Below are positions 8,438 through 64,000 of a DNA stretch of 64,000 nt, piece after piece. The notes beneath the pieces were generated by a model. That model was given only the letters and a program-made list of their open reading frames with translations, was not told the DNA's origin and did no database searches. The stretch is from Eledone cirrhosa. Taxonomy: Eukaryota. Each line of letters starts with the position of its first letter. Position 1 is the first letter of the stretch. Both the position numbers and the translations under genes were made by a program. The stretch spans positions 23,560,001-23,624,000 of the forward strand of contig OZ024764.1 in the NCBI GenBank assembly GCA_964016885.1. Reading direction: 5' to 3'.

Positions 8438-10456
<2,019 letters not shown>

Positions 10457-17084: not shown

Positions 17085-17342
17085 TTTACCGAAGTACCCG
17101 ATGACTCTTGTGAGGGTACTTAGCTGTTCTGGCGGTTTAGCCTCCATGACATGATTTTACTGAGATACCCGGTGATCTCTGTCAGGGTACTTAGCTGTTC
17201 TGGCGGTTTAGCCTCCATATGACCCGATCTTACCGAGATACCCGGTGATCTCTGTCAGGGTACTTAGCTGTTCTGGCAACTTAGCCCCCATATGACCCGA
17301 TTTACCGAAGTACCCGGTCATCTCTGTAATAGTACTTAGCTG
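17085..17342 (+). repeat. 70-73-bp minisatellite upstream of the promoter, about 3.5 units
   Basis: TTACCGAGATACCCGGTGATCTCTGTCAGGGTACTTAGCTG unit. About 4.5 units at 33662-33993 and about 1.5 at 53635-53750. Confidence 0.85.
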
Positions 17343-18742: not shown

Positions 18743-19083
18743 ACTAAGGTGTTGAAATAACCAGGTACCCTCACGGGTATCACCTGGTGCCTCGGTAAGG
18801 CGAGGCTAAGGTGCTGAAATAACCAGGTACCCTCACGGGTATCACCTGACACCTCGGTAAGGTGAGGCTAAGATGCTGAAATAACCAGGTACCCTCACGG
18901 GTATCACCTGACACCTTGGTAAGGTGAGGCTAAGGTGCTGAAATAACCAGGTACCCTCACGGTATCACCTGACACCTCGGTAAGGTGAGGCTAAGGGGCT
19001 GAAATAACCAGGTACCCTCACAGGTATCACCTGACACCTTGGTAAGGTGAGGCTAAGGTGCTGAAATAACCAGGTACCCTCAC
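18743..19083 (+). repeat. 62-bp minisatellite, about 5.5 units
   Basis: GAAATAACC at 18754, 18816, 18878, 18940, 19001 and 19063. Confidence 0.92.
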
Positions 19084-19440
19084 GGAAATGACTAGATTTG
19101 TAGAAAAAGTAGGGTGAAAGTATACGAAGAGATGTAGTTTCACAGATCTACTCACACCTCACGTTGGGTGGGAAATAATTATTTTTCTTAGATTTTTTTC
19201 TAGACCCCTTTTCAATATTTTCTCTGAACCCCTTAGATACTTGCAATAGACGTTTTATTCCCCAGTATTAGGGTTAGGGTTTCCGTTTTCAGGAAGAAAT
19301 GTCGATTGCAAAGATCTAAGAGCTCGAGAAAAATAATAAGGAAAGATAATTATTTCCCAGCCAACTGGAGAAGTGTGTAGCTCTTCTAAGCTCTGATAAT
19401 CCTGTCTCCCACTTCTTTATCTACAAATCTAGTCGTTTCC
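19084..19440. mobile_element. MITE-like element with TIR GGAAAYGACTAGATTTGTAGA and internal TTAGGGTTAGGG
   Basis: Terminal and internal inverted repeats. Also at 34959-35314, partial at 2531-2756. No TSD seen. Confidence 0.65.
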
Positions 19441-23447: not shown

Positions 23448-24647
23448 ATGTCGAAAAATATAGTAAAATCAACATTCCACTGTGATATCTGTGGTAAATC
23501 ATTCTCTCGTAGTGATAACCTAACTACTCACAAACGTATTCATACAGAAGAGAAGCCATATCAGTGTGATATCTGTGACAAATCATTCAGTCACAGTAGT
23601 AACGTCAGAGTTCACAAACGTATTCATACAGGAGAGAAGCCATATCACTGTGATATCTGTGGTAAATCATTCAGTCGCAGTAATACCTTAACTACTCACA
23701 AACGTATTCATACAGGAGAGAAGCCTTATAAGTGTGATATCTGTGGTAAATCATTCAGTTACAATACTAGCGTCAGAGTTCACAAACAAATTCATACAGG
23801 AGAGAAGCCATATCGCTGTGACATCTGTAGTAAATCATTCTCTGACAGAAGTAGCTTCCTTAAACATCAACGTATTCATACAGGAGAGAAACCATATCAG
23901 TGTGATATCTGTGACAAATCATTCAGTCACAGTAGTAGCGTCAGAGTTCACAAACGTATTCATACAGGAGAGAAGACATATCACTGTGACATCTGTGGTA
24001 AATCATTCAGTCAGAGTAATACCTTAACTACTCACAAACGTATTCATACAGGAGAGAAACCATATCACTGTGATATCTGTGATAAATCATTCTCTCGTAG
24101 TAATAACCTAACTACTCACAAACGTATTCATACAGGAGAGAAACCATATCACTGTGATATCTGTGGTAAAACGTTCTCTAAAAACAATAACCTAACTACT
24201 CACAAACGTATTCATACAGGAGAGAACCCATATCATTGTGATATCTGTGGTAAATCATTCACTTGTAGTCAGCACCTAACTACTCACAAACGTATTCACA
24301 CAGGAGAGAAGCCATATCAATGTGATATCTGTGATAAATCATTCAGTGACAGTAGTAGCTTCAGAGTTCACAAACAAATTCATACAGGAGAGAAGCCACA
24401 TCACTGTGACATCTGTGGTAAATCATTCAGTCACAGAAATACCTTAATTACCCACAAACGTATTCATACAGGAGAGATACCATATCACTGTGATATCTGT
24501 GGTAATTCATTCTCTCAGAGTAATCACCTAACTACTCACAAACGTATTCATACAGGGGAGAAGCGTTATCACTGTGACATCTGTGGTAAATCATTCTCTC
24601 CCCGTAGTAACTTAACCAAGCATGTGCGTATTCATACAGAAGTTTAG
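23448..24647 (+). CDS. Poly-C2H2 zinc-finger protein copy 2, 399 aa, 14 fingers, no effector domain
   Basis: Intact ORF with 14 CxxC..F..L..HxxxH repeats and TGEKPY linkers. Ends HTEV*. Confidence 0.93.
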   Translation: MSKNIVKSTFHCDICGKSFSRSDNLTTHKRIHTEEKPYQCDICDKSFSHSSNVRVHKRIHTGEKPYHCDICGKSFSRSNTLTTHKRIHTGEKPYKCDICGKSFSYNTSVRVHKQIHTGEKPYRCDICSKSFSDRSSFLKHQRIHTGEKPYQCDICDKSFSHSSSVRVHKRIHTGEKTYHCDICGKSFSQSNTLTTHKRIHTGEKPYHCDICDKSFSRSNNLTTHKRIHTGEKPYHCDICGKTFSKNNNLTTHKRIHTGENPYHCDICGKSFTCSQHLTTHKRIHTGEKPYQCDICDKSFSDSSSFRVHKQIHTGEKPHHCDICGKSFSHRNTLITHKRIHTGEIPYHCDICGNSFSQSNHLTTHKRIHTGEKRYHCDICGKSFSPRSNLTKHVRIHTEV

Positions 24648-28532: not shown

Positions 28533-30559
28533 GAGACATAACAAACTGAGGGTTCCCCAAGGGCCACATAGGTCACGTGTTGTCTGAGGGTTGCACACTG
28601 CAACTAATTATGTACACGACAACTAATTAGTCATTTAATAAAATATATTGCAGAAAGATTTGTTACTTAAATTTAGAAACATACAATGTACATACAAATG
28701 TTTTAGCAACATTCATGAATACAAAGTAATGAAGTAGTTTGACAAAAAACTAAAATTTCACATGTCAACATATACTTGCAGATTGTAACAGCAACAAATA
28801 CATTGTACACAAATAACAACAGTTGAAAACTGAACATTTATTTGCTACTATTCAACCATTTTTAGTCTTTTGTGCTGAGGCTTGACACTTCTTTCTGTTG
28901 ACTATTTTTGGTATATCTGGCTGAAATGTCTGTACAGTTCCAACTTTAATCAGAGATGACAAGTGTTGATCTGTCAGCCTTGTTCTCTGAGAAGTTTTTG
29001 TTAAGCAAAGTACAGACTCAGTATGGGCAGTGATTTTCAGCTCTTTTCACATAAGAAAATGAATTAAATTTTCATCTGACAACGGAGACTTCCATAAGCT
29101 AACTTTTCTAATGAAGAACTTGATGTCATCATACAACTGAGTGATGGGTTTGTTTTTACCTTGTAATTTCAAATTAAGATCAGTTAATCGTGCAGTAATA
29201 TCCACAAATAAAGCCAGATGTTGGAGCCAACTTTCATCTTTTATTTCACCTGTGTTTTGACCTTTCATCTCCAAAAACATAATTATTTCAACAAATAGAA
29301 TTTTTTCAGCACTTTGTGACATGTCAACCAGCAGACTTCTGTGTAGAATGGAACATCGGTGAACTGATTATCCATATCTTCCAACAACTGGCTGAACTGA
29401 CGGTGGTTGAGAGCATGGCCTCTGATTTAGTTCACTGTCTTTGTGACCAAGCTAAGCACATGATGCAATTTTAAAATCTTTGAACATAAATTTTGCTGAA
29501 ATGTGCAAATGATGAATCTAAATATGAGTTTTCTATTTTTGTTTGTAACTTGGCAGCAACACCATTATGTCTACCAACCATATTTGCAGCACTGTCAGTA
29601 GATAAACATGAAAATTTACTCAGATCAAAACCATGTAGACCCTGCTTGACCTTCTCAAAGATGTCCTGGCTTGTTATAGTGTCATGCATGGGGACCAGTT
29701 CAATCAGTTCTTCATAAATATTAAATTCACTGTCACAGGCCCTGATGAAGAATGCAAGCTGTACTATTCCAGTGATGTCAACAGTCTCTTCAATAGCAAT
29801 ATAAACATGTTCAAACCTTGATGATACAGCCTTTAACTGTTGTTTCAGATCACCTGACATTTCATTAATCTGTTCAGCAACAGTGTTCCTGGTTAATGAA
29901 ATGTCTTTGAATAACTCTGCTTTCTCTGGACAATTTCAGCTGTTTTTACAAGACATTGCTTTACAAAATCTCCTTCACTCTAAGATTTCCCACTCATGGC
30001 AATCATTCGACTGAGTTCATAGCTGGCAGTAACAGAAGTGACATCCTCTTCCTGAATTAACATAAAACAGGTCTGTTGCTGTGTCAAGTTAGACTTCAAT
30101 TCCTTGAGTCTTGAAACACACACTGGGCCTTCATATTTATTGTAAGATTGATGGTTTATTTCATAATGTCTTTTTAAATTGTACTCTTTTGGCGTGGAGA
30201 TGTAGTTGTTGCAAATTAAACAGTGTATCTTTCTGTTCACCATTGGGCAAAAATACTGTATTTCCCACTTTTCTTGAAACACTTGAACTTCTTCGTTCAA
30301 TTTCCTTTTTCTCTTAGCTGGAGGAGCACTAACCATTTCAAAAACAAAATCTTTTGAAATTTTGAAAGAAAGTTTTCTGTTAATGAGCTGCACGTGATTA
30401 ATGGAAGTTAAAAGTAGTTGACAAAATTTGCACAAAAAAAATAATTGTATCGAAAATGTTTTACATTTTATATTACGAAAATGAAACATGCTCGCACTGT
30501 AAAAACCTTAGTGTGGGCCGCAGGTTTGCTTGCAAAGGGCCGCATGTTTGACATGTCTG
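28533..30559 (-). mobile_element. hAT (Buster/Charlie-like) transposon, segmental duplicate of 13237-15282
   Basis: Same TSD ATGTAGGT (28525-28532, 30560-30567) and same flanks. Confidence 0.92.
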
Positions 30560-31685: not shown

Positions 31686-33002
31686 AATAATAATAATAAT
31701 GAAATTATTGTGTACAGTGCTCAGGTGCACTACAACTCATCAAAGGTGCATGTATAGTACATAGAATAATGTACAAATGTCAGGAAAATAAACAGTGTAT
31801 GAGTCATGATATAATAACAATAACAATAATGAAATATTGTGCACAGTGCCCAGGTGCACCACAACCCATCAAAAAAGTGCATGTACAGTACATAGGGCAA
31901 TGCACAAACATCAGTAAAATGAACAGTGCACACATGTGTGCATGTGTATGGAAGGGGCACATCAGGTGTAGTTTTGGCGTATTTCGGGAAGCATGAGTGT
32001 CTTAAAGGATGCAGTGTCTCGGCAGCTAACAATTGACGCAGGCAGTTTGTTCCATGTTTCAGCAACTCTGAGCGTGAAAAAATGTCTGCGAAAGTCATGG
32101 GAGCTGTGCTGTTTTCTTATCTTGTAGGCATGTCCACGTGTGTTAGATACATGGAGATCAAAGAGGCGCTCAGGGTTGCAGTTGGCGAGATGGTTAAAAA
32201 CTTTGTGGGTATTCACCAAGTCCACTGCCAGACGTCGGAGCTTCAATGAATCCATGCCCAGGGAAGCAAGGCGTTCAGAGTATGGTAGGTGTCTGATGGA
32301 GGGTATGCGCTTGGTTGCACGTCTCTGAACAGTTTCCAGGAGGTCAATGTTCCGAGCAAGATAGGGGTTCCAGACTGATGATGCGAATTCCAAGTGTGGT
32401 CGCACCATAGCTGTATACAGTTTTAAATAGATGGCTGGAGAGCGGCTAACAAAGGTCTTGCTGAGTGATGCCAAGACACCCTCGGCCTTCTTGACAATCT
32501 TAGAGACATGCTTTGTCCAACGCAAATCGTTGCTGACAGTGATGCCCAGGTCACGTTCACAAGAGGACTTTTTGATGTCAGTGTTGTGGAGGGAGTATGT
32601 GGACGCTGGATTTTTCCTTCCAAAATGCATGGTGGTACACTTGTCCACAGCCAGCTTCAGTTGCCAGTCTGTGATCCATTGCTGCATTGTGTCCAGGTCT
32701 GATTGTAGGAAAGAGTTGTAAATTTCAGGATCAGTCCTTTTGATTTCAAGGTACAGCTTGATGTCATCTGCATATTTTAGTACCGTGTCATTCTGTAAGT
32801 TGGCATCTATGTCATTAATATATGCCACAAACAAAAGAGGACCAAGAACAGATCCCTGTGGTACACCAGATGACATCTCATATGGTGAAGAATGCTGTCC
32901 TAGAACTGTGACTACTTCCTTTCGGCTGAGAATGAAGGATTTCAGCCAGTCGAAAAGATCATCCCTCACACCCATTGCAGAGAGTTTTGCCATAAGTCTT
33001 TT
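31686..33002 (-). mobile_element. 5'-truncated CR1-clade LINE with intact RT C-terminal ORF and (ATT)n tail
   Basis: ORF 31962-33017 has SGVPQGSVLGPLLF, YADD, ERDLG, VRPHLEFASSVWNPY, VQRRATK and RGH..K..FFTLRV..WNKLP. Absent at the equivalent sites near 16420 and 52968. Confidence 0.92.
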
Positions 33003-34073
33003 AGATACTTTGTACAATAGAACCTGCTTTATTTTGTGTCCTAAGTAGATTTCTGTTTAAGTATTTACGAGATTCACAATGATTCACGTAACCAAGTTAC
33101 TTACATAGAGATATATTTCACATAGAATCACAACAAATGAAAATATTAAGTCAACACTCTGTCAATCAGTCTCACATCACATGGGGTGCCGGAGTCTCCT
33201 TCTAATTCTTTCTGAGACAGTCTTACCTCGAGTGATAGCAAGGCTAAGATGTTGGAACTACCAAACACCCTCATATGTATCATCTGACACCTCGGTAAGG
33301 AGAGCTGCCAACGATAACAAGAACCTCGTTGTCAGGGACCTATCTCCTCCAAACTTCTCCAACACCACAGACTAGAATATTCTACTCTTTATTCCCTATC
33401 AAATATATTTCAGTCTAGTCATTTATCTTGTATCTTGTATATGTATTTTCAAAACTAACTGTCACATTTGTGAGACCCCAGTTAGTGATGTTTTCGTCTC
33501 CATCCTACATGCTGTAGTAAAAGTGAGGGTCACTGCTTCTGTAGACGAACGAAATAAAAGTTAAACTACCAGTAATTATCGGCAAAGTATTTATTCCAGT
33601 CTGTGATGTTTGAGAAGCTGGGCTGCTGACAACGAAGTTGTGGTCACTGTTGGCGGCTGGCTTTACCGAAGTACCCGATGACTCTTGTGAGGGTACTTAG
33701 CTGTTTGGGTGGTTTAGCCTCCATGACATGATTTTACTGAGATACCCGGTGATCTCTGTCAGTGTACTTAGCTGTTCTGGCGGTTTAGCCTCCACATGAC
33801 ATGATTTTACCGAGATACCCGGTGATCTCAGTCAAGGTACTTAGCTGTTCTGGTAGCTTAGCCTCCATATGACCCGATCTTACCGAGATACCCGGCGATC
33901 TCTGTCAGGGTACTTAGCTGTTCTAGCAACTTAGCCCCCATATGACCCGATCTTACCGAAGTACCCGGTGATCTCTGTAAGAGTACTTAGCTGTTATATT
34001 TTAATTACATTTACTGATTTAAACTTTCATTTTTTATATGACAAACTTTACATAATTTAATTCCGTAAAAATA

Positions 34074-34740: not shown

Positions 34741-34958
34741 ACTAAGGTGTTGAAATAACCAGGTACCCCCACGGGTATCACCTGGTACCTCGGTAAGGCG
34801 AGGCTAAGGTGTTGAAATAACCAGGTACCCTCACGGGTATCACCTGACACCTCGGTAAGGTGAGGCTAAGGGGCTGAAATAACCAGGTACCCTCACGGGT
34901 ATCACCTGACACCTTGGTAAGGTGAGTCTAAGGGGCTGAAATAACCAGGTACCCTCAC
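34741..34958 (+). repeat. 62-bp minisatellite, about 3.5 units
   Basis: GAAATAACC at 34752, 34814, 34876 and 34938. Confidence 0.9.
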
Positions 34959-35715
34959 GGAAACGACTAGATTTGTAGAAAAAGTAGGGTGAAAGTATAC
35001 GAAGAGATGTAGTTTCACAGATCTACTCACACCTCACGTTGGGTGGGAAATAATTATTTTTCTCAGATTTTTTTCTAGACCCCTTTTCAATGTTTTCTCT
35101 GAACCCCTTAGATACTTGCAATAGACGTTTTATTCCCCAGTATTAGGGTTAGGGTTTCCGTTTTCAGGAAGAAAAGTCGATTGCAAACATCTAAGAGGTC
35201 GAGAAAAATTATAAGGAAAGATAATTATTTCCCAGCCAACTGGAGAAGTGTGTAGCTCTTCTAAACTCTGATAATCCTGTCTCCCACTTTTTATCTACAA
35301 ATCTAGTCGTTTCCTGCTACTTTGAAGGCCCTATTTATTGATAACACCACTTGTAAATCTTTGTCAACTTTTCATACGTAAATTGTGAATCAGTTATTTT
35401 TAAACAAACTATCAAAGAAGTGATCTCCCAGTAACTGTGTTTGATTTAATCAACTTATTCCCCCCAAACATTGTCTACCTTGTGTCTCAATCAGAAACTA
35501 TTATAAGATCTTAAATCAACCTCGTAAAGATGAAGGGCAAAGCTAACCACGGCGGGATTTCAACCCTTTATGTTATGAGTTCAAATCCCACCAAAGTTAA
35601 CTTTGTCTTTCATTCTAACGGAGTGGATAAATTAAAGTTCCAGTAATCTACTGGGGTCTGAGATATTAACGTTTGAGTAGATTCTATCTTTTGTGTGTTT
35701 GTATTTATAATCTTA

Positions 35716-35821
35716 CTAGAAACCCTGTGACCTGTTGCGTCACGTTCCCTTTAAAAATAATATTTAAATAATTAAAATATACACAGACATGTATATAATG
35801 TAAAATGAAATTAGTAGGCCC

Positions 35822-35864
<43 letters not shown>

Positions 35865-35886
35865 TGTGTGTGTATATATATATATA

Positions 35887-35953
<67 letters not shown>

Positions 35954-38900
35954 ACAGCGACGGCTTCAATAGAGTACATGGAGGCCATGGAGTTGGCACA
36001 AGGAATGAGGAAGGATTCAGATTTCTAGAATTCTGCGACGCCAATGATATGTCGATATGTAACACAAACTTTAAAAAACCCGACAACCACCTGATCACCT
36101 ATAGATCAGGGGAGCATTCTAGTCAGTTAGATTTTATCCTCATCAGAGGACGTGACAGATGGACGGTCGTAAACACAAAAGCCTTCCCTAGTGAGGAATG
36201 TACATCCCAACATAGCTTAGTTGTCAGCGACCTCACGGTCAGAACTAGACGAACCCGGAAACAGAGGCCAACCTGGAGAAGAAAGATTTGGAAGCTGAAA
36301 GTCCCCTCAACCAGTAACAGATTTAAAGATATTTTACTCAACGCCTACGACAGAAAAGAAGAACAGATAGAGACATTTAACGTAGAAGAGAACTGGGAGT
36401 TCCTATAAAATAACTTACTAAAGGTGACGGATGAGATCTGTGGCTGGAGTAAGACCTCAAGCAGGAGGAGAGTGACTTGGTGGTGGAACAATAAGGTAGA
36501 TGAAGCAGTTAAGGCCAAGAGACAGGCATGGAAAGAATGGAAGAACGGGGGGAGCAGAGTACATTACATAGAGACCAAGAGGGAAGCTAGGCGACAAGTA
36601 TACTTAGCTAGGAGGGAAGCAGAGGATAGAAAATTCAAGCATGTTTTACAACGTGGGGACCAGAAACAGGAGGTATTCAAGATTGCGAAGCAGTGTGTCA
36701 GAGATAGTTGTGATGTCATTGGAGAGAAGTGTATCCGGAATGATAAAGGTGAGCTTGCCCTCACAAGTGCTGAGAAGAAAGATGCATGGAAGAGTCATTA
36801 TGATAGATTACTAAATGAGGAGAATGCATGGGAAGAAGAGACCCTACCCCAAGTAGACCCTATAGAGGGACCAGCAGTACAAGTCAGCAGCAGCGTAGTA
36901 AGTAAGGCAATCAAAGATATGAAGATGGGGAAGGCAACCGGTCCATCGGGTATAGCTGCCGAGATGCTGAAGGCATCTGGGTCTGTAGGTCACACTATAA
37001 CCACACGTATCGTTAACCAGGTAATACTAGAAGGGGCCATACCAAAAGACTGGTGCAGTAGCATCATTGTCAACTGCTACAAAGGTAAAGGCGATGCACT
37101 AGATAGAGGAAACTATAGAGGTATGAAGTTGATGGACCAGGTTATGAAAGTAACAGAAAGAGTTATAGCACAGCTGATTAGGGACCAGGTGAAAATAGAC
37201 GAGATGCAATTTGGGTTTGTACCAGGAAGAGGCACCACTGATGCCCTCTTCCTTGTGAGGCAATTACAGGAAAAGTACCTAGCTAAAAGTAAGCCACTCT
37301 ACTTGGCATTTGTCGACCTTGAGAAAGCCTTTGACAGAGTTCCACGTGTTGTAATCTGGTGGGCTCTTAGAAAACTAGGAGTAGATGAATGGCTCGTGAA
37401 AGCGGTACAAGCCATGTATAGGGGAGCAGTCAGCAATGTTAGGATTAGCAATGAGTATAGCGAGGAATTTAGCGTACAGGTTGGGGTCCACCAAGGCTCT
37501 GTTCTTAGCCCTCTCCTGTTCATCATAGTCCTGCAGGCAATAACGGAGGAGTTTAAGACCGGATGCCCATGGGAACTCCTGTATGCTGATGACCTCGCAC
37601 TCATAGCTGAATCTATGGTAGAATTAGAGAATAAATTCCAAACCTGGAAGCAGGGACTAGAAAGAAAGGGTCTCAAAGTCAACATGACAAAGACTAAGGT
37701 CCTTGTAAGTAGACGAGAAAACAGAACCCAGATCCCCTCAGGGAAATGGCCTTGTTCAGTATGTAGGAAAGGTGTAGGTAGGAACTCCATTCTCTGCTCC
37801 AAATGCAAACAATGGGTACACAAGAGATGTAGCGGGATCTCAGGAAGCTTAATTAAGAATGTAGGATTCACATGCAGCAGCAGTGCTGAAACAGCAAGCA
37901 GCAAACAGCCACAGGAAACAAGTACCACCAATCTCTGGGAGGGCCCTGTAGAAACAGTAGACAGCTTCTGCTACCTAGGTGACCGAATTAGCAACGGAGG
38001 TGGGTGTTCAGAAAGTACAATAACTAGGGTAAGAACGGGATGGAAGAAGTTTAGGGAACTACTACCACTGCTAGCTGCAAAAGGCTTCTCCCTCAGAATG
38101 AAAGGCAGACTGTATGATGCGTGTATCCGAACAGTGATGTTGCATGGTAGTGAGACCTGGGCGCTGAAGGTGGAAGACTTACGTAGATTAGAGAGAAACG
38201 AAGCCTGCATGCTCCGATGGATGTGTAACAGTAATATACGTGAACGACAAAGCATAAATGAATTGAGAGAGAGACTGAGCATAAGAGGAATCAAATGCTG
38301 TGTGCAGGAGAGGCGGTTGCGCTGGTATGGACATGTGATGCGTATGGAGGATGACAGCTGCATAAAAAGGTGCAGAGCACTAGAAGTTGATGGAAACCGC
38401 GGAGTGGGGAAACCCAAGATGACCTGGGATGAGGTGATAAAAGCCGACCTTACCCAATTACACCTCTCAAAGACAATGACACACGACCGTGACTTCTGGC
38501 GTCACGCAGTAATACAGAGTACCCAACCTCCCATGGGTACAAGCTGAAGCATATAGACAATATGCCCCCACACCCCCCACTATAAAGTGGTCGTGGAGGT
38601 GCCACAGCAAAAAAAGCACCCAGCCCACACTGTAAAGTGGACGTGTAGGCGCCACGAAAAAGCACCCAGCACTCACTGTAAATGAGGTTGGTGTTAGGAA
38701 GGGCATCCAGCTGTAGAAATCAAGCCAGATCAGTTCCTGTATGAGCAAGGCATGGTCAGCCGACCAGACACTGCACACAACAGGACAACCCGTCTAACCC
38801 ATGCTAGCGTGGAAGAACGGACGTAAAACGGTGATGATGATGATGATGATACACACGTCACTTGTTATAATTTTATAACTTTGTTCAACAGCACCACCAG

Positions 38901-44345: not shown

Positions 44346-44752
44346 TTTATATTTAGCAGGGAGATCTTTTACTGTCCCTACCCTTTTCTCTAGGTTGTCT
44401 TGTACCTCTCTCACAGTCCCTCTAGATCTTATATTTAACAGGGAAATCTTTTACTGTCTCTACCATTTTCTCTAGGTTGTCTTGTACCTCTCTCACAGTC
44501 CCTCTAGATCTTATATTTAACAGGGAGATATTTTACTATCCCTACTCTTTTCTCTAGGTTGTCTTGTACCTCTCTCATAGTCCCTCTAAATCTTATATTT
44601 AACAGGGAGATGTTTTACTGTCCCTACCTCTTTCTTTGGGTTGTCTTGTACCACCCTCACAGTCCCTCTAGATCTTATATTTAACAGGGAGATGTTTTAC
44701 TCTCCAACCCTTCTCCAGATAGTCTTGTATCTGTCAGTCCCTCTAGATCTTA
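44346..44752 (+). repeat. 82-bp minisatellite, about 5 units
   Basis: Same unit as 11110-11930. Confidence 0.9.
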
Positions 44753-46859: not shown

Positions 46860-49800
46860 ATGACCATGCTGCAAAATGGAGGGGTAGAGAGGGCCCTTGC
46901 GTCTAGTAAGACATCCTCTCTAGTGCTGGTGGCACAAATAAAAGCACCCAGTCCATGCTGTAAAGTGGCGCTGGTGTTAGGAAGGGCATCCAACCAGTGT
47001 ATCAATGCCAAAACGCTTATCAGCACAGCAACAAATAGGAACAACAAAAAAATATGAAGACGTCGCATCTCAGAGTTGCAACACTTAATGTTGGCACTCT
47101 CACAGGTAGATCTGCTGAAATAGCGGAGATGCTGGAGAGAAGGCATGGAGATGTGTGCTGCGTGCAATAGGTGAGATGTAGAGGTGCCTCTGCGAGACTA
47201 GTCGTAGGCAAACATCTTAGCTATAAGCTTTTCTGGGTAGGTAAGGATGATCGGTTAGGGGAGTAGGCATTTTCCTGGCTGAGAGATGGATCAATAAGAC
47301 AATAGAGGTAGTTCGAGTTAGTAATAGAATAAGCTTAGATTAGTTGTAGGCAAGAGACGACTGACAATCATCTCTGCCTATGCTCCCCAGGCAGGCCTAG
47401 GCAAAGATGAGAAAGACTGCTTTTATGAGCAACTTTTACAAACAGCCGCAATGACAGAGGACGGAGACATCGTTATGCTAGTAGGGGACTTCAATGGTCA
47501 TGTTGGACAGCTCCAGGATGGATACACTGGGGTACATGGTGAGCACAGTTACGGGTCAAGAAATGAAGAAGGAGTGAGACTTCTTGAATTTTGTGATGCA
47601 GGTCCATTGACTATTTACAACACAAACTTCCAGAAACCTGTCAATCACCTAATAACCTACAAATCTGGCAAGCACATAAGCCAGATTGACTTCTTACTAG
47701 TTAGGCAGCGGGACAGGCAGATAGTGTCTAATACCAAGGCATACCCTGGGGAAGAATGTACCCCACAGCATAGGTTAGTTGTTAGTGATATCTCAGTAAG
47801 CAAGAGATGGAATGAGACATACAGGAAGGTGTGGAGAAGAAAGGTCTGGAAGCTAAAAGACCTTTCACTAAAATACAAATTTAGGAAAGCCCTTCAAGAT
47901 GTATATGACGAAAAAGAAGACGATTTAGAGACGTATGACATAGATAATAACTGGAATTTCTTACGTGACAACTTTCTGCAGGCTACTGATGAAACTTGTG
48001 GCTGGAGCAGAGCTCCAACCAGACAGAGAGTGACCTGGTGGTGGAACAGCACAGTAGATAAGGCCATTAGAGACAAAAGACTAGCATGGAAGGCTTGGAA
48101 AAAGGGTGGGAGTAGGGAAGAATATACAGCCGCTAAGAGAGAAGCTAGATGTCAGGTGTACTTAGCACACAGGGAGGTTGAGAGTAGGAGGTTTGCCAAT
48201 GTTCTGCGACGGGAAGATCAGGGTCAATGCAAATCAGGATGTTGTTGGAGATAAATGTGTCTGGAATGATGCCGGTGTACTTAGTGTCACGAATGATCAG
48301 AAAAAGGAGGCCTGGAAATGTCATTATGAGAGACTGATGAATGTGGAGAACGAATGGGGGAGAGAGAAATTACCCTTAGTAGATCCGAGAGAGGGACCAG
48401 CTATTGAGATTGACGAATATAGGGTCCAAGAGGCAATTAAGGAAATGGAAAATGGTAAGGCTGCTGGACCATCGGGAATAGTTGCTGAGATGCTGAAGGC
48501 ATCAGGAGACGTAGGCACTAAACTGGTTGCACGCATCATCAATCAGGCTATATATGGTGGTGTCATACCCAAAGACTGGTGCAGCAGTATTCTCATAAAT
48601 TGCTACAAAGGTAAAGGGGATGCTCTGGAGAGGAGCAATTATAGGGGTATGAAAGTGGCAGAAAGGATATTAGCACAACTAATTAGAGAACGGGTCAAAC
48701 TAGATGAGATGCAGTTTGGTTTTGTGCCTGGGAAGAGTACAACAGATGCCCTCTTCTTGGTGAAACAATTGCAAGAGAGGTTCTTAGAGAAAAATAAGCC
48801 ACTCTACTTAGCCTTTGTTGACCTAGAGAAGGCCTTTGATAGGGTACCCCGATCTGTCATCTGGTGGTCCCTAAGGAAACTAGGTGTTGAGGAATGGCTT
48901 GTGAGGACAGTGCAAAGTTTGTACAGAGGTACTCTCAGTAAAGTTAGGGTAGGAATGGAGTTTAGTGAGGAATTCCAGATACAAGTAGGAGTACATCAAG
49001 GTTCGGTCCTCAGTCCACTCTTGTTCATTATAGTCCTCCAAGTCATAACAGAGGAGTTTAAGACTGGCTGTCCATGGGAACTTCTCTATGCTGACGATCT
49101 GGTTCTTATAGCAGAATCAGTAGAGGAGCTAGAGAATAAATTCTGGCTATGGAAACAGCAGTTGGAATCAAGAGGACTGAGAGTGAACCTAGCTAAGACA
49201 AAAGTGTTGATGAGTAGAAAAGAGGACAAAACTCTGATTCCGTTAGGGAAATGGCCATGTTCGATATGCAGAAAAGGAACTGGCATAAATTCTATAAAAT
49301 GCACACAATGCAGATCCTGGGTACAAGAGATGTAGCGGGATAGCAGGCAAACTAACAGGTAGGGAGAAATATGTATGCAGTAGATGTACAAGGAAATTAG
49401 ACAGTAGAAGTCGCATTGATAGCCACTGTTTTCAAATGCAGGAAGGTGCTATAGAAGTGGTGGATAGCTTCCGGTACCTAGATCAGATTAGCATGGGAGG
49501 AGGGTGTTTCGATGCCATAGTAACTAGAATAAGGACAGGCTGGAAGATGTTTAGGGAGCTGTTTCCTCTGCTGACGAAGAAAGGTTTCTCCCTGCGTACG
49601 AAAGGCCGGTTTTATGATGCCTGTGTGAGCACCGCAATGCTGCATGGTAGTGAGACATGGGCAGCAACTGCCGAAATGAGACATCCTTTGGATGTGCGTG
49701 AACGACCCAGCATGAATGTTGAGAGAGAAACTGTGTCTGAGAGGGATAGAATGTAGTGTACGGGGGAGAAGACTGAGGTGGTATGGACATGTGATGCGCA

Positions 49801-50049: not shown

Positions 50050-52068
50050 CAGTGGTACCTTGACTTACGAGTGTCCCAACTAATCGGCTGATTTTTTGCG
50101 TTGAGTTCCAGGGTAAAATTCGGGTTGCGAGTCAGCTTCAGATGCCCCGCCACTAGTTGGCATAGCGACCGCCACAGGGAATACGATAACACCCGCCCAG
50201 CATCCCATGGCTTCGAAGAAAGTGAGGGCGAAGGACAGTTCTGAGAAGAAGAAGCAGATGATGTCTATTGAATTAAAGAAAGAAATTATAGAAAAACATG
50301 ACCAAGGTGTGTGTGTAGTGGACTTGGCGAAGCAGTACGAGCGTAGAACTTCTATGATATGTACCATACTGAAGTAGAAGGAGTTGATAAAGGCTATAAC
50401 CCCAGCTAAGGGTGGTAAAATAATTTCTAAACAGCGGACCTCTATCCATGAAAATATGGAGAAGCAGCTCGCAAGAGATACCGTGATGAAGATTATAATA
50501 TGTGAGAAGGCACGAGCTATTTACGCTGATTTGCTGCAGCAGACCCCAGGTACTTCTACGGACGAGCCAGCCATCGGCAAGCCCTTTAATGCCAGTCGGG
50601 GTTGGTTTGAGAATTTTAAAAAGAGGACCGGCATTCACTCCGTTGTCAGGCATGGTGAGGCAGCGAGCGCGGATATGAAGGCAGCTGAGGATTACCTCAA
50701 AACCTTTGCCGGAATTATAGCAGCCAAAGGATACATCCCTCAGCAAGTCTTTAACTGTGATGAAACAGGACTTTTTTGGAAGAAGATGCCAAGGAGGACT
50801 TATATAATGGCAGAGGAGAAGAGGATGCCTGGCCACAAACCCATGAAGGATAGGCTAACCCTCGCACTGTGTGCCACTGAGCGGCGAGTGTAAGATTAAG
50901 TTGCCGCTCGTTTATCATTCAGAAAACTCCAGAACCTTTAAGTCACATAAGATTCTGAAAGAAAAACTGCAGTTTATGTGGAGGGCAAACCCGAGGTCAT
51001 GGGTCACCAGGTAGTTCTTTGTGGAGTGGGTGAATTTGGTCTTTGGTCCTGACGTTAAAAAATATCTCCATGAAAATAACCTACCCCTGTAAACCCTTCT
51101 TGTCCTACATAATGCACCTGCTCACTCACCCACCCTCGAAGAGTTCAAGTTTATAAAGGTCCTCTACCTTCCACCAAACACCACCCCTATCCTACAGCCC
51201 AAGGACCAGCAGGTACCTTCTAATTTCAAGAAGCTCTTCACCAAGCACCTGTTCAGTCGCTGCTTTGAAGTGACGGGGAGCACAAACTTCACCCTTGAGA
51301 GGTCTGGAAGGACCATTATAACATCGTGATATGCCTCAGAATTATCGATATGACATGGCAGGGTCTTACAAAGAGGACCTTGACCTCTACATGGAAGAAG
51401 CTGTGGCCTGAAGTTGTGTCTAAAACAGACTTTGAAAGACTCGAACCCGAAGCGGCAGTGGTGGAGGAGATTGTACCCCTCGGTAAGTCCATGGGCCTGG
51501 ACATGGATGAAGGTGACATCAACGAGCTCATCGAGGAGCACCCCGAGGAAATGACAACGAAGGAATTAAAGGAGCTACAGACACAGCAACACACGGAGTT
51601 TTTGCAGGAAATAGGTGACACAGAGGAGGTTATCTCAACAAGTGAGATGAAACAAACCTTATTAGACAGGTTTTTATTGAAAATCCCTGCAGATAAAAGT
51701 GAGGAAAGCGTGGCGAAAAGAGCAAACATCAGCGAATAAGATTCAGTTATTCAGTTCATCCTTTCTCCTCCGTCAACATCCTCAAGTCGTCTGATCTCCA
51801 AGATAGATGCTGTACATTATACTTAATAAAACTAGTTTGTTGTAGTACATTCTATTGTATTGTTTTTTGTATACAATATTTGTCATTTATAAGTACATTT
51901 TTCTTATTTAAAAACACGTAACAAAACAAACTGTGGTTTTTTGGGGGTCTGGAACGGATTAACGGCATTTTATTTTATTTCAGTGGGGAAAATTGATTTG
52001 ACATACGAGTAATTTAAGTTACGAGGTCCTCCACGGAACAAATTAAACTGTAAGTCAAGGTACCACAG
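50050..52068 (+). mobile_element. Tigger/pogo (TIGD1-like) DNA transposon, decayed
   Basis: TA|CAGTGGTACCTTGACTTAC ... GTAAGTCAAGGTACCACAG TIRs. ATG 50207 begins an HTH. ASRGWFENFKKR, VFNCDETGLFWKKMP and KDRLTL motifs, with stops and frameshifts. Confidence 0.93.
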
Positions 52069-52268: not shown

Positions 52269-53830
52269 AGATATATATATATATATATAAATGAAGAATA
52301 TAGAAATTATTGTAGCAAAAAGCCAACAGTATTCCATTATATATATGTATATATGTATATATAGTATAAAAGAGAAAACACAGGTAAGCATTAAGAGAAG
52401 GATTTTATCCAGGTATTTACGACCGTTTCATTGGTAAGTGCAACCTTATATTTCTATCCTGCAAATAACAGCCACTCAATTATAATTGTTGTTCACTGTC
52501 CAAATTTTCAAAATAGTAAGTTACTCTTGAAATAATTCTTAATATATAGAGAAAAACATTTATTTGGAATTGTATTTACTAGTATAGAGAGAGAGGAATC
52601 AGAAGGTGAGGGGACAGACGGAATAGTATAGAGAGAGAGGAAGGGGGAAGAGGTAGGAAGTAGAGTGACAAACTGAGATGGAGGGAGGGGTAGAGGTGGA
52701 AGGATTCTTTGGTCAGTTTTGACAGCAGACTTCATGTCGTGGAATGTAGTGAGTTAAAGAGAATTAAATTGATCATTTTTGGAGGGATGGATATATATAT
52801 ATATAGTTAAATATTAGACAGGAACAAAAAACAGGCAGTGCAAATGGTAGTTTATACCGAGAGAGAGACAGACAAACACATCTATACCCCTACTACGGTA
52901 AAACAAAACATATGTAAGGGGAGACAACTCTCGTTACATCCCCCCTTCTTTTTGATATACGTCCTTTATATACTTTGTTCAATGGAATCTGCTTTATTTT
53001 GTGTCCTAAGTAGATTTCTGTTTAATTATTTACGAGATTCACAATGATTCACGTAACCAAGTTACTTACATAGAGATATATTTCACATAGAATCACAAAA
53101 AATGAAAATATTAAGTCAACACTCTGTCAATCAGTCTCACATCACATGGGGTGCTGGAGTCTCCCTCTAATACTTTCTGAGACAGTCTTACCTCGAGTGA
53201 TAGCAAGGCTAAGATGTTGGAACTACCAAACAGCCTCATATGTATCATCTGACACCTCGGTAAGGAGAGCTGCCAACGATAACAAGAACCTCGTTGTCAG
53301 GGACCTATCTCCTCCAAACTTCTCCAACACCACAGACTAGAATATTCTACTCTTTATTCCCTATCAAATATATTTCAGTCTAGTCATTTGTCTTGTATCT
53401 TGTATATATATTTTCAAAACTAACTGTCACATTTGTGAGACCCCAGTTAGTGATGTTTTTCTCTCCCTCCCACATCCTACATGCTGTAGTAAAAGTGAGG
53501 GTCACTGCTTCTGTAGACGAACGAAATAAAAGTTAAACTACCAGTAATTATCGGCAAAGTATTTATTCCAGTCTGTGATGTTTGAGAAGCTGGGCTGCTG
53601 ACAACGAAGTTGTTGTCACTGTTGGCGGCTGGCTTTACCGAAGTACCCGATGACTCTTGTGAGGGTACTTAGATGTTCTGTCGGTTTAGCCTCCACGTGA
53701 CCCGATCTTACCGAGATACCCGGTGATCTCTGTAAGAGTACTTAGCTGTTCTATTTTAATTACATTTACTGATTTCAACTTTCATTTTCTTCATTACAAA
53801 CTTTACATAATTTAATTCGGTAAAAATATT

Positions 53831-53976
53831 TTTACGTCACAAAAAAACTTGACCTTTGACATTGAAGCATGCGCAGTGGTCCAGTTGTCGACTTCCTGTC
53901 CACGTGTTAGTCTTCCTACAACATCATTTAGAAAACATTTCTGTAATTACTAAACACCTGAGACTATAATGTAAGT
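53831..53976 (+). promoter_or_regulatory. Putative promoter, non-coding exon 1 and donor of ZNF copy 4
   Basis: TTACGTCA, GCATGCGCA 53867, ACTTCCTG 53891, CACGTG 53901, GTAAGT 53971. Confidence 0.65.
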
Positions 53977-54899
53977 ATTATGTCTATTAATATTGTAGAT
54001 TTAAGCTCACTTTTCACATCACAAATATATATTTTCTTGTTTGTTTCATTACTGGAAATATAAAATGTTATCGTAATTATCTATATTTTACCTACCTCTA
54101 ATTAATTAAAGTGAAAACTTTTGTTGTTGCTGAAAAATAAATTAATAAAACTAAATATTTAAATATTCTAAAGGTCGTTTTTATAGTATGTGATGATATA
54201 ATTAATATATTTTATTACAATTGTATAAATTTACAGTAGAATAACGTTGTAAATATGTTTTAAATATATACATAAATAACATAAGTGTGTAAATAACATT
54301 ATAAATTGCTGGCAATTCCTTGAGAAAGACATTACAAATATATTGTCTAAACTGTGTATAATAATATAATTTATTGAACAATAATGATAAAGGAAAGAAA
54401 AACACAGTGGGAGATGGCAATTGACCACCAAACGAGGTAAACATTTTCAACTTTCCCCTTTTTTTGCTTTGTCCGAGACAACTCAAAATATTCTTCAAGG
54501 AACTGGATTTTCCATTCGGTTGGATCGAACGGATTTTACCATTTATAATCTACGGAGAGGAATAACAGATGTTCGGAGGAAAAAAGAATTGTTTGTGGCA
54601 ACAACGTAGGGAACCAACCTGGAGCAATTGTATCACACAATTATACTTTCCTCCTTAACATACACTTACAATTTTTCAAAATCAAACCCCCCAAATATAA
54701 AATATAAATAATTATAAATGGCGAGGAACCATCCCATCTCCCTCTTGAAATAACCTGAATCTATTTATAGTCAGGTGTGACTGAAAGGTCAATCCATACT
54801 TCCATTCTATTTCACAGAATTAGAAGCTTTGACCACTTTATAGAATTCAGGTCCAGTAATGTAATCACTCCGTAATTGTAAACATCTTGTATCACTATC

Positions 54900-57598
54900 A
54901 TTCAGGTTTTGATTTTACTTAAGTCTTGCCCATGTTTTTTTTTTTTTCCTTTTTTTTTTACACAAACTCACAATTTCGGTTTTTACTGCGGATTTACCCA
55001 TGCGAACTATTACACAAACTCACAGCCTTAGATTTTGTATTTCTAGCGTTTTTATTTTCCTTCTCTTTGTATGTTCAGTGCTCTTTCTCTCCCACTGTAT
55101 TTATCTGCCTCTCACATGACCACACTCCTCTCCACGCACTCATCATCTTCTCACTCCTTCTACACCTTCCATCCCTCCCCTTGCTCAACCCTTACTTCCT
55201 CCTCGCGCACAGCCCACCTAGGTATTCGTTCAACCCGCCGGTGGCCCGATGTTTCGACCGAACTATCACCGGCGATTGCCGATTGCTAAAGTTGCCACCA
55301 CTTTAACCTAGTCCACTCTAGGTGGGGGTGGCATGCGTCGAACGACCAAGAGACTTGCTTGGTGGAACGACTAATGTGACAACCGGTCAGCCTTCGACCT
55401 CTCATTCTCCACCAACTGCAGCACGCACGAGAGGAGCTAACTTGACCCCACCTACCTCTCCTCTCCTTCACGGCAGATTCCGAACGAATCCAACCCGTCC
55501 AACCACACCACCCCTACAACTGTTAGCTCACCACACAACCTCCGCTTTACTCCCACCGTTAGAACCACTGCTGTCTCCTTTACTGACTCACTCCCTTCAC
55601 CGAATTCCAACGCTGGCCCTCTACTGCCGGCTGTTGCCAGCCCGCCACCTGATTGCGCCCTCTGTGCCCGCACTAACCAGTACTTAAAGACAATTAAATG
55701 TCACCTATGCCACGCAAGCTACCACAGAAGCTGTGTCGGCATCACCAAAGCTCAAGCTAAAAGGCTTCAACACTGGACCTGTCATCGGTGCCACTTCAGC
55801 TCTGACTATTCCGTGGGGATGACCAACACTCTACCGACGACTTTGCCACAGTGATGTGTGGCTGCTGTCCACGCTGCCAGAACATTTGCCAACTTGCCCT
55901 CCTCATCCCCCAAGGTCATCCTCAAACTTGACCTCAGGAATGCCTTCAACTCCGTCAGCCGCAACATCGTCCTCGGCTCAGTAAGAGAGAGGGTCCCACA
56001 ACTCTACCACTTTGCTTGGCAGGCTTATCGGGAGCCCTCCTACCTCTCTTTCAGTAACCAGATCATCACCTCTGCCTCAGGAGTCCAACAGGGTGACCCA
56101 CTCGGACCCCCCCCCCCCCCGCACTGGACATTGATGACGTCACCAAGATGGGGCTGAGTTGGACCTCAATGTCTGGTAGCTCGACGATGCCTGTTTGGGG
56201 GGAACTCCGGATATGGTTCTCGCCACTGCCAACAGGATGGTGGAGGAGCTTGGCGCCTGGGTCTCCAGATCAATAGCTCCAGATGTGAGCTCTGGATCCT
56301 CAACCACCCGGCTTCTTAACACCAACAGCTGATCGACCTGTTCGCAGAGTCCTTCCCTTCCATCACGGTCCCTCCCCCGTCAGCTTGGTGCTCCTTAGGA
56401 GCCCCAATCATAGACCTGGCCTTCGAGTCAACCATCCAATCGAAGATGGTTGGCCTTGAGCAGCTGCTGAGGAATATTGAAGATATCGAACCCCATCAAG
56501 GTTTCTTCTTACTCAGGAACTACCTGTCTATTCCTAAGCTTCTGTATCTACTCAGGGTCAGCCCCTCTCACAGATTTCCATCCTGCCTCCAACGCTTCGA
56601 CGACCTAATCTTAGAGAGACTCGAGTGTCTGGTCAATGTTAGTAAGTGTTCGTCCCTCTCTCTCCCCTGCTTCCTTTCCTCCACCCAAGCTTGCAGCATC
56701 CTCTCCTCTCCAACATGGACTAGTTCCAACAGGGAGTTGTGTGAAGCTCTCCAGCAATGGAATGAGTTGGGCTTGTCTCTTCCTGAGAAGGTGGAGGACA
56801 GTCGAAGTCAGAGAACTTGGGACAGGATACGTTGCAATGCCACCTTCGACTCCCTCTTCGTCCTCTCAGATCAGTCTGCAAGGTGCCGCTTACCATCTGC
56901 CAGCGCCAAATACTCCGGTGACTGGGTCGATGCCTTACCCGTGGCCAACGTTGGAGGCCTACTCAGCCTGGATGAACTTCGTGTCTCCATCACCCTCAGA
57001 GTGGGAGCTGACGTCTGCATGGGTTTGAGATGTGGCTAACTCCTCGACTCCACAGGCCTCCACGGTCTTTCTTGCCGCCTGAATGCCGGCCACTTTGCCC
57101 GTCACACGGAGCTAAACTTTATTCTGAAGAGAGCTTTGGCCCGGGCAAACATCCCCTCGGTCTTGGAACCATCTGGGTTGTCCAGAAGTGACGGCAAAAG
57201 ACCTGATGGCCTTACCATGTGGCCCTGGTGGAGAGGCAGGTGCCTAATCTGGGACGTCACTGTTAGTGACTCCTTTGCTCTTTCCCACATCCTTGATGCT
57301 GCGGTATGGACGAGAGCCACAGCTTCGGCAGCCGAGCGGAGTAAGACCCTCAAATACTCTGATCTGTCGGCCAGCTACATTTTTCAGCCTGTGGCTTTCG
57401 AGACGTTTGGGGGAGTCGGGCCGCTGACTGCGAGGTTCCTTTCTTGTGTGCTGGCTTGCCTCAAAACTCATTAGAGAGGTTTTCCAGTACCCCTCGTTGC
57501 TGTCTTTTGCTCTGGTGTTGGCTCCGTTGTCCACCCCTTCCTTTACATTTTCTTTAATATTGCAACATTGAAGGAATTTATCTTTCATTGTATCATCC
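54900..57598 (+). mobile_element. Decayed CRE-clade-like non-LTR retrotransposon (PHD, RT, restriction-like endonuclease)
   Basis: PHD at 55654-55791. RT motifs AAVHAAR..LKLDLRNAFNSVSR..GVQQGDPLGP. RLE motifs RH..LN, DGKRPDG..WDVT..K.LKY..FQPVAFETFG. Both ends are approximate. Confidence 0.82.
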
Positions 57599-57630
57599 TT
57601 TATCTACAAATCTAGTCGTTTCCTGCTACT

Positions 57631-62393: not shown

Positions 62394-64000
62394 ATGTCGA
62401 AAAATATAGTAAAATCACCATTCCACTGTGATATCTGTGGTAAATCATTCTCTCGTAGTAATCACCTAACTACTCACAAACGTATTCATACAGGAGAGAA
62501 GCCTTATAAGTGTGATATCTGTAACAAATCATTCAGTCACAGTAGTAGCGTCAGAGTTCACAAACGTATTCATACAGGAGAAGAGCCATTCCACTGTGAC
62601 ATCTGTAGTAAATCATTCTCTTGCAGAGATAGCTTAACTGATCACAAACGTATTCATACAGGAGAGAAGCCACATCACTGTGACATCTGTGGTAAATCAT
62701 TCTCTTGCAGAGATAGCTTAACTACTCACAAACGTATTCATACAGGAGAGAAGCCATATCACTGTGATATCTGCGGTAAATCATTCGCTGACAGAAGTTG
62801 CTTAGCTACCCACAGACGTACTCATACAGGAGAGAAGCCATATCACTGTGACATCTGCGGTAATTCATTCTCTCAGAGCAATCACCTAACTACTCACAAA
62901 CGTATTCATACAGGAGAGAAGACATATCAGTGTGACATCTGTGGTAATTCATTCTCTCGTAGTGATAACCTAACTACTCACAAACGTACTCATACGGGAG
63001 ACAAACCATATCACTGTGACATCTGTGGTAAATCATTTGCTGACAGAAGTTGCTTAGCTACCCACAGACGTACTCATACAGGAGAGAAGCCATATCACTG
63101 TGACATCTGCGGTAATTCATTCTCTCGTAGTAATAACCTAACTACTCACAAACGTATTCATACAGGAGAGAAGACATATCAGTGTGACATCTGTGGTAAT
63201 TCATTCTCTCATAGTAATAACCTAACTACTCACAAACGTACTCATACAGGAGAGAAGCCATATCACTGTGACATCTGTGGTAAATCATTCTCTCGTAATC
63301 ACCTAACTCTCCACAAACGTACTCATACAGGAGAGAAGCCATATCACTGTGACATCTGTGGTAAATCATTCTCTCATAGTAATCTCCTAACTATCCACAA
63401 ACGTACTCATACAGGAGAGAAGCCATATCACTGTGACATCTGTGGTAAATCATTCTCTCAAAGTAATCACCTAACTCTCCACAAACGTACTCATACAGGA
63501 GAGAAGCCATATCACTGTGACATCTGTGGTAAATCATTCTCTCGTAGTAATCACCTAACTATCCACAAACGTACTCATACAGGAGAGAAGCCATATCACT
63601 GTGACATCTGTGGTAAATCATTCTCTCATAGTAATCTCCTAACTATCCACAAACGTACTCATACAGGAGAGAAGCCATATCACTGTGACATCTGTGGTAA
63701 ATCATTCTCTCAAAGTAATCACCTAACTCTCCACAAACGTACTCATACAGGAGAGAAGCCATATCACTGTGACATCTGTGGTAAATCATTCTCTCGTAGT
63801 AATCACCTAACTATCCACAAACGTACTCATACAGGAGAGAAGCCATATCACTGTGACATCTGTGGTAAATCATTCTCTCATAGTAATCACCTAACTCTCC
63901 ACAAACGTACTCATACAGGAGAGAAGCCATATCACTGTGACATCTGTGGTAAATCATTCTCTCGTAGTAATCACCTAACTATCCACAAACGTACTCATAC
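62394..64000 (+). CDS. Poly-C2H2 zinc-finger protein copy 4, at least 19 fingers, open to the window end
   Basis: ATG 62394 [17 protein letters not shown]. Hand-translated with no stop to 64000, which is why it is missing from the ORF track. Confidence 0.9.

What the first reader, a model, noticed from the sequence alone, without database searches (positions are those of the whole stretch)
62394..64000. PRDM9-like minisatellite evolution of the finger arrays
Seen: finger scaffolds are nearly invariant even at synonymous sites, while recognition helices vary (RSNH, HSNL, QSNH, DRSC, CRDS, RSDN). Copy 4 has an exact 252-bp three-finger duplication (63341-63592 = 63593-63844) and a looser one (fingers 5-7 and 8-10). 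Copy 1 has a run of about 8 near-identical HSHH/HSNH-type fingers (8820-9490). Copy 3 fingers 3-5 match copy 2 fingers 10-12, implying loss or gain of 7 fingers. Inference: concerted evolution with selection at positions -1, 2, 3 and 6, probably with allelic length polymorphism.
Basis: partly seen in the sequence, partly recalled or inferred. Interest (0 to 1): 0.7.

Follow-up and report, generated by a model that had tools for sequence, protein, structure and literature searches.

The report
Finger-shuffling zinc-finger gene swarm
This is one of about 200 young, side-by-side copies of a DNA-reading zinc-finger gene in what is likely an octopus; the copies differ by whole fingers gained, lost or swapped, and likely were selected long-term for new DNA targets, a pattern known from mouse and fish clusters, while the recombination gene PRDM9 appears to lie elsewhere in the genome.

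Summary
In detail: the 252-bp duplication is exact, and copy 4 is an intact 21-finger ORF whose fingers 12-20 differ at only four bases, all changing residues -1, 3 or 6. It is one of at least 203 copies of a finger-only C2H2 gene clustered on one contig of a probable octopod. In 121 arrays (6-28 fingers, flanks about 3% diverged), whole-finger gains, losses and replacements (42 in 20 close pairs) outnumber contact-residue point changes (12). Contact-codon piN/piS is 2.3 (neutral simulations: at most 2.15), so long-term diversifying selection is likely, but the newest point changes show no excess. Against 'PRDM9-like': fingers are barely more alike within genes (0.83) than between them (0.82), no PR/SET or KRAB lies in the cluster, and a neighbouring non-coding minisatellite shows the same invariant-backbone pattern. 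A true PRDM9-like gene (KRAB-like, PR/SET, 39 fingers, 0.92) sits on another contig. Allelic polymorphism and expression are untested. Known kind (mouse KZFP, zebrafish FiNZ clusters); the scan reached the same verdict in two other genomes.

The parts
62394..64000 (+). Copy 4: finger-only C2H2 ORF (9-residue leader, 21 fingers, 594 aa; ends 178 bases beyond the window)
63341..63844 (+). Exact 252-bp three-finger tandem duplication; closest paralogues (L002, L003, L012) have 18 fingers, i.e. one copy of the triplet
63342..64000 (+). Recently amplified run, fingers 12-20 (the last lies just beyond the window): 97.8% identical, four segregating bases, all amino-acid changing, at -1, -1, +3, +6
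62757..63260 (+). Older three-finger duplication (fingers 5-7 vs 8-10; 12 differences in 252)
63261..63341 (+). Finger 11, 81 bp, one helix codon missing in frame; same 81-bp unit in L002, L003, L012
58467..61645 (+). Non-coding 39-bp minisatellite in the presumed intron (81 copies here; 0-145 in 11 copies examined); internal neutral control
53760..53976 (+). Block conserved upstream of 7 of 7 aligned copies, with a GTAAGT donor-like site at 53971; presumed promoter and non-coding first exon (inferred, no RNA support)
8456..10410 (+). Copy 1: 23 fingers, two frameshifts, probable pseudogene; near-identical twin 1.0 Mb away (L023, 99.96% over 5271 bases)
23448..24647 (+). Copy 2: intact, 14 fingers, 399 aa
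42906..43517 (+). Copy 3: intact, 7 fingers, 203 aa
11111..11904 (+). 82-bp non-coding tandem repeat downstream of arrays (also 44347-44752); 0-10 motif hits in 38 loci

Best explanation
Copy 4 is an intact member of a young tandem cluster of at least 203 finger-only C2H2 genes in a probable octopod, whose 84-bp finger units are gained, lost and replaced between close copies, likely by unequal exchange within arrays and between neighbouring genes, with likely long-term selection for new DNA-contact residues. Shown: the cluster, the spread of finger numbers (6-28), a finger pool shared across genes, mosaic flanks, excess amino-acid diversity at -1, 3, 6 (and 2). Inferred: the exchange mechanism, expression, DNA binding, and the target (transposons or other repeats, by analogy with vertebrate clusters). 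New binding specificities would arise mostly by re-ordering an old library of finger types; point mutation would feed the library slowly; many copies decay (32 of 121 broken).
For: 203 exact matches to the 23-base gene start and 175 to the gene end; all 100 listed places of each lie on C25 at 19.1-22.7 Mb. Upstream flanks differ by 3.4% on average (81 of 121 homologous flanks), yet 121 arrays give 107 distinct contact-residue strings and 949 of 1524 fingers occur base-for-base in two or more arrays. In 20 disjoint close pairs (flanks 0.8% apart) there are 28 unit gain/loss events in 12 pairs, 14 replaced fingers and 12 contact-residue point changes; 37 of 94 point differences have both states elsewhere in the same two arrays. 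12 of 121 arrays hold exact internal repeats of 168 bp or more. Four-gamete incompatibility among informative flank sites is 43-66% (40 arrays), as expected from exchange between paralogues. piN/piS: contact 2.34 (column bootstrap 1.6-3.65), helix non-contact 1.26, linker 0.29, Cys/His 0.07; neutral simulations gave a mean of about 1 and a maximum of 2.15, and omega 3-5 gave 1.9-2.5. Distinct single-step changes at contacts: 55 vs 36.5 expected (50 vs 25.3 in intact ORFs). Organism: highest-identity named homologues of the first 45 residues are Octopus proteins (72-78%); the C22 PR exon is 74% identical to an O. bimaculoides protein.
Against: The newest point differences show no contact excess (12 of 66, p=0.38) and scaffold purifying selection on young changes is weak (omega 0.4-0.8), so present-day evolution may be close to drift. 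Using helix-local piS (about 0.27, my sum of the columns) the ratio falls to about 1.8, reached by 1.5-3% of neutral simulations. Conversion that homogenises scaffolds more than helices could inflate the ratio and was not simulated. The non-coding 39-bp repeat puts 84% of its heterozygosity in 5 of 39 positions with 26 invariant, so concentration alone needs no selection. No RNA evidence of expression or splicing. Unit-indel counts depend on my gap penalty. 39 of the sampled loci were picked for likeness to copy 4's flank.
Confidence: 0.75

Rival explanations
1. Mostly neutral repeat instability: a selfish or redundant tandem amplification in which the finger array behaves like the neighbouring non-coding minisatellites, with only purifying selection on the scaffold; helix diversity is inherited from older fingers and merely reshuffled.
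For: 39-bp repeat: 0-145 copies, 96% identity, variation in 5 of 39 sites. 32 of 121 ORFs broken, with shared frameshifts in several copies. No contact excess among recent point changes. Finger 1 has lost a zinc-binding His in L002, L003, L012.
Against: The three most diverse codons are exactly -1, 3, 6, seen in 0-0.7% of neutral simulations; ratio 2.3 never reached. 89 of 121 ORFs remain open across all fingers.
Confidence: 0.2
2. A PRDM9-type recombination-site specifier (or a swarm of truncated PRDM9 copies) under hotspot-erosion selection.
For: Copy 4 has P(-1,3,6)=0.38, third of 121, near the 0.41 of the C22 gene; its fingers 12-20 give P=1.0.
Against: None of 14 PR-domain matches (21 of 21 candidates scored) is on C25; 13 N-terminal queries bearing KRAB, SCAN, PR/SET, BTB, ZAD or THAP by their Pfam lists gave 0 hits in 733,519 bases of the cluster and window, while the PRDM-type queries found the C22 gene; cluster fingers are only 63% identical to the C22 fingers.
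Confidence: 0.02
3. Assembly artefact: uncollapsed haplotypes and mis-assembled repeats produce the copies and the exact duplication.
For: Several pairs are 99.5-99.96% identical over 5-6 kb at 0.07-2.3 Mb distance and could be alleles placed twice. Nothing or 55 spans an array.
Against: 107 distinct strings in 121 arrays; identical rare indels recur in diverged copies (81-bp unit in four, 85-bp unit in copy 1 and L024); the duplicated run shades into near-exact neighbours; no N in the window. An artefact could explain some twins, not the family.
Confidence: 0.05

Closest known systems
Mouse KRAB-ZFP / MMSAT4 clusters (Kauzlaric 2017, PMC5363842; passages and section 7 read)
   Same: Young clustered paralogues; fingers duplicated in tandem and blocks of 2-7 fingers repeated within a gene; finger region less conserved than flanks; many decayed copies.
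   Different: No KRAB domain found here; invertebrate; any two fingers of the family are about 82% identical in DNA.
Lineage-specific poly-ZF expansions of vertebrates (Emerson and Thomas 2009, PMC2604467; passages) and zebrafish FiNZ-ZNFs (Wells 2023, PMC10547256; passages)
   Same: Selection concentrated at -1, 3, 6; whole-finger gain and loss among paralogues; Wells also predicts transposon binding for octopus ZNFs and reports contact residues among the most variable.
   Different: Emerson and Thomas found conversion short and limited except in chicken; here exchange between paralogues looks pervasive; no conserved N-terminal effector beyond a 9-residue leader.
Cephalopod C2H2 expansion (Albertin 2022, PMC9068888, passages; Holzinger 2025, PMC12513265, first part and passages; PMC12988792, passages)
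   Same: Hundreds to thousands of clustered C2H2 genes with octopus-specific clades of 104-495 sequences.
   Different: The passages read count genes and expression; they do not analyse finger-level turnover or contact-site selection.
PRDM9 zinc-finger minisatellite (Baker 2017, PMC5519329; passages, section 10 part 1, section 25 read)
   Same: 84-bp coding units, exact multi-finger duplications, diversity at contact residues; fingers 12-20 of copy 4 look just like it.
   Different: No KRAB, SSXRD or PR/SET; family median P 0.295 vs 0.33-1.0 for full-length PRDM9 in their Table 1 (human 0.687, mouse 0.910); homogenised across about 200 genes rather than within one.

Membership tests
PRDM9 | PR/SET domain upstream of the array | tested here: not met
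   0 of 14 genome matches on C25; 0 tblastn hits in 733,519 bases with positive control on C22
PRDM9 | KRAB and SSXRD domains | tested here: not met
   0 tblastn hits with KRAB- and SSXRD-bearing queries; the Pfam genome scans were insensitive (searches also missed the C22 KRAB-like exon), so they add nothing
PRDM9 | Fingers homogenised within the gene | tested here: not met
   within 0.833 vs between 0.824; copy 4 0.877; C22 gene 0.918. Met locally for fingers 12-20 (0.978)
PRDM9 | Diversity concentrated at contact residues, top of the genome's ZF genes | tested here: inconclusive
   copy 4 0.38 (0.47 with +2), family median 0.295, C22 gene 0.41 (0.52); no genome-wide ranking; which positions Baker counts was not stated in the text read, -1/3/6 assumed
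PRDM9 | Allelic length polymorphism; meiotic expression; hotspot specification | not testable with these tools
   only short contigs and 150-base reads available
Lineage-specific clustered poly-C2H2 expansion | Tandem C-x2-C-x12-H-x3-H fingers with TGEKP linkers | tested here: met
Lineage-specific clustered poly-C2H2 expansion | Many young clustered paralogues, with decayed copies | tested here: met
   203 start-motif hits; 3.4% flank divergence; 32 of 121 broken
Lineage-specific clustered poly-C2H2 expansion | Finger gain/loss among paralogues and excess change at -1, 3, 6 | tested here: met
   excess absent from the newest point changes
Lineage-specific clustered poly-C2H2 expansion | Binding and repression of transposons | not tested
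   analogy only (PMC10547256)
KRAB-ZFP / FiNZ-ZNF proper | N-terminal repressor domain | tested here: not met
   in-frame stop 7 codons before the ATG in copy 4; no KRAB/SCAN/BTB/ZAD hit; FiNZ not queried; an unseen spliced coding exon cannot be excluded without RNA

The most novel reading that the evidence does not exclude
An effector-less, invertebrate combinatorial DNA-recognition repertoire: some 200 genes act as one megabase-scale coding minisatellite that trades about 200 fingerprint types between genes, so that new specificities appear by shuffling faster than by mutation and differ between individuals, as a germline library against transposons; it coexists with a full PRDM9-like gene, for which the searches run found no cephalopod report.
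Probability: 0.25. Interest if true: 0.65.

Novelty: new member of a known kind. Interest (0 to 1): 0.38.

Why it matters
The cephalopod C2H2 expansion is well known as a gene count, but how its members acquire new specificities was not addressed in the papers read. This cluster is young enough to count the events directly, and shows whole-finger shuffling from a shared pool as the main recent route, convergent with mammalian KRAB-ZFP clusters but seemingly without a repressor domain. It makes the transposon arms-race idea testable in an octopod. The side find, a PRDM9-like gene with a 39-finger minisatellite, makes it testable whether cephalopod recombination hotspots are PRDM9-directed.

Tried and rejected
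Reads: the run search gave no RNA run of the best-matching organism. Laying four runs on copy 3's upstream region and four presumed RNA runs of other organisms on a compact paralogue showed no joint from the presumed first exon to the finger exon; uninformative, not evidence of absence. Contigs and 150-base reads cannot span a 252-bp exact repeat, so the artefact test was not possible. Depth figures were not used as copy numbers. The idea that crossovers fall specifically inside arrays (upstream vs downstream flank distances uncorrelated, rho 0.04) was dropped: halves of the same flank correlate only at 0.23-0.24 and incompatibility is as high within flanks. Copy 4 as a 5'/3' chimera is suggestive (fingers 1-2 match other arrays exactly; downstream flank 0.7% but upstream 2.5% from L002) but no upstream donor was found among the sampled loci. 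A five-fold CpG multiplier did not change the contact result. Pfam KRAB and SSXRD genome scans were insensitive. The bacterial promoter scan is irrelevant to an animal. Albertin 2015 was not held; its report of a 70-90 bp repeat beside C2H2 genes is recalled only. Tree-based dN/dS was not run because exchange violates it (Baker 2017).

Full report
Observation. A six-frame scan and repeat search find four 84-bp finger arrays in the window. Cut into units, they hold 23, 14, 7 and 19+ fingers. The 252-bp duplication is exact and lies in a 327-bp exact run; fingers 5-7 and 8-10 differ at 12 of 252 bases; copy 3 fingers 3-5 match copy 2 fingers 10-12 at 3, 0 and 5 differences. Copy 4 continues past the window to 21 fingers and 594 aa and matches only finger-type Pfam models among the 25 shown. 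Copy 1 is frameshifted twice.

Context. The window is G000:C25:23,560,001-23,624,000 of a 3.0-Gb genome; 40 scored candidates matched the 760 bases before the array at 97-100%, all on C25. A 23-base start motif occurs 203 times and an end motif 175 times; the 100 listed places of each are on C25, the rest were not listed. The organism is inferred to be an octopod from protein identity. I read 122 arrays: 39 loci chosen by likeness to copy 4's flank (including copy 4), 80 of the 81 unfetched listed places, and copies 1-3. L023 was dropped as a twin of copy 1, leaving 121; statistics use 1524 of 1592 inner units (those of 84 bp), terminal fingers excluded. Finger number is 6-28, median 13.5; 89 of 121 ORFs span all fingers.

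Turnover. Flanks differ by 3.4% but arrays give 107 distinct contact strings, 300 helices and 218 fingerprints, and 949 of 1524 units recur exactly in another array. Copy 4's nearest relatives have 18 fingers, so its triplet duplication is a recent gain. Larger exact repeats exist elsewhere (846 and 504 bases; 12 of 121 arrays at 168 or more). In 20 disjoint close pairs, 12 show unit gains or losses (28 events), 9 differ in finger number, 14 of 232 aligned fingers are replaced, and 94 point differences remain, 37 of them with both states present elsewhere in the pair. Flank sites are widely incompatible with one tree (43-66%), which points to exchange between paralogues along the whole repeat unit, not only in arrays. 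Unequal crossing-over or conversion is the inferred cause.

Selection. piN is highest at -1 (0.56), +3 (0.53), +6 (0.47); +2 is 0.38; piS is 0.21. Contact piN/piS is 2.34, other helix positions 1.26, hairpin 0.45, linker 0.29, Cys/His 0.07. In 646 neutral-helix coalescent simulations with matching piS the ratio averaged about 1 and peaked at 2.15. Counting each distinct single-step change once gives 55 vs 36.5 expected at contacts, 41 vs 41 at other helix positions, 14 vs 25 at Cys/His. Against: among the newest point differences only 12 of 66 amino-acid changes hit contacts (p=0.38); a helix-local piS lowers the ratio to about 1.8; conversion bias was not simulated; and the non-coding 39-bp repeat just upstream has the same look (76 units, 96% identical, 26 of 39 sites invariant, 84% of heterozygosity in 5 sites, 0-145 copies between paralogues). 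So the invariant backbone reflects recent common descent, while the coincidence of the variable sites with contact codons likely reflects older selection.

Is it PRDM9-like? As a process, locally yes: fingers 12-20 are 97.8% identical with four segregating bases, all non-synonymous at -1, 3, 6 (a stretch picked after seeing it). As a family, weakly: P(-1,3,6) is 0.38 for copy 4 and 0.295 at the median, against 0.33-1.0 for full-length PRDM9 and about 0.17-0.21 for teleost beta copies in Baker 2017 Table 1; within-array identity is barely above between-array identity. As a member, no: no PR domain on C25, no effector hit in 733,519 bases. The genome's own PRDM9-like gene is on C22: KRAB-like exon, zinc knuckle, PR/SET whose best solved-structure match is PRDM9 (E 3e-24), and 39 fingers at 0.918 identity, P 0.41, piN/piS 4.05.

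Gene model. A block with a donor-like site is conserved upstream; an in-frame stop precedes the ATG by 7 codons. A finger-only protein is inferred; no RNA evidence was obtained.

Known and new. Finger duplication, loss and contact-site selection in young clusters are described for mouse KZFPs, vertebrate poly-ZFs and zebrafish FiNZ genes, with predicted transposon binding for octopus ZNFs; the cephalopod expansion is described. Searches for zinc finger + minisatellite + cephalopod and PRDM9-like concerted evolution in invertebrates returned nothing; PRDM9 + octopus or cephalopod returned listings only, none on a cephalopod gene by title or abstract start; a cnidarian PRDM9 preprint does not mention molluscs (passages). 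Subscription papers and supplements (e.g. Wells Supplemental Fig. 8, Baker file 3B) were not seen and may bear on novelty. Two earlier scan notes on other genomes reached the same verdict. Verdict: real, well supported, a new and unusually young example of a known kind; interest 0.38.

Noticed in passing
G000:C22:11,539,695-11,554,100 (L132-L134, L041): PRDM9-like gene: KRAB-like exon (E about 4e-5 to deer and lamprey PRDM9 in 30 kb), zinc knuckle, two PR/SET exons (best PDB match PRDM9), then a 39-finger minisatellite (identity 0.918, contact piN/piS 4.05). SSXRD not established (one weak match, E 0.003). Orthologue-like partial protein in O. bimaculoides is named only 'zinc finger protein 391'. 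Possibly of more interest than the finding itself.
   Followed up: partly
window 8456-10410 and L023, L024: Copy 1 has a twin 1.0 Mb away (2 mismatches in 5271 bases) with the same two frameshifts; other pairs at 99.5-99.95% suggest recent multi-gene segmental duplications or uncollapsed haplotypes.
   Followed up: partly
L061, L076, L089, L092, L097, L109, L113: A subfamily with runs of up to 16 near-identical KNTKLTR-type fingers, a candidate binder of a simple or satellite repeat.
   Followed up: no
L066, L120: Five-finger and six-finger blocks repeated about three times (exact runs of 504 and 846 bases).
   Followed up: partly
window about 8901-8910; L036, L053, L056, L063, L065, L069, L084, L105, L120, L121: An 82-bp unit recurs 12 times, mostly from a 2-bp loss at the first Cys codon of the next finger, in different finger contexts: recurrent slippage, spread by exchange, or systematic error.
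   Followed up: partly
G000:C1132:436,392-447,107 (L042, L043): Two near-identical PR-domain exons 10 kb apart in opposite orientation on a small contig, similar to one on C1.
   Followed up: no
window 244-1743, 19587-22470, 35818-38544, 47328-49753, 31965-33056, 54550-57600: LINE-type reverse-transcriptase fragments in the presumed introns and spacers, and transposase-like remnants at 13562-15164, 29474-30507 and 50378-50890; family names not tested.
   Followed up: no
window 17085-17342, 18744-19085, 33662-33995, 34742-34960: 73-bp and 62-bp tandem repeats flank the presumed promoter block, also with variable copy number.
   Followed up: no
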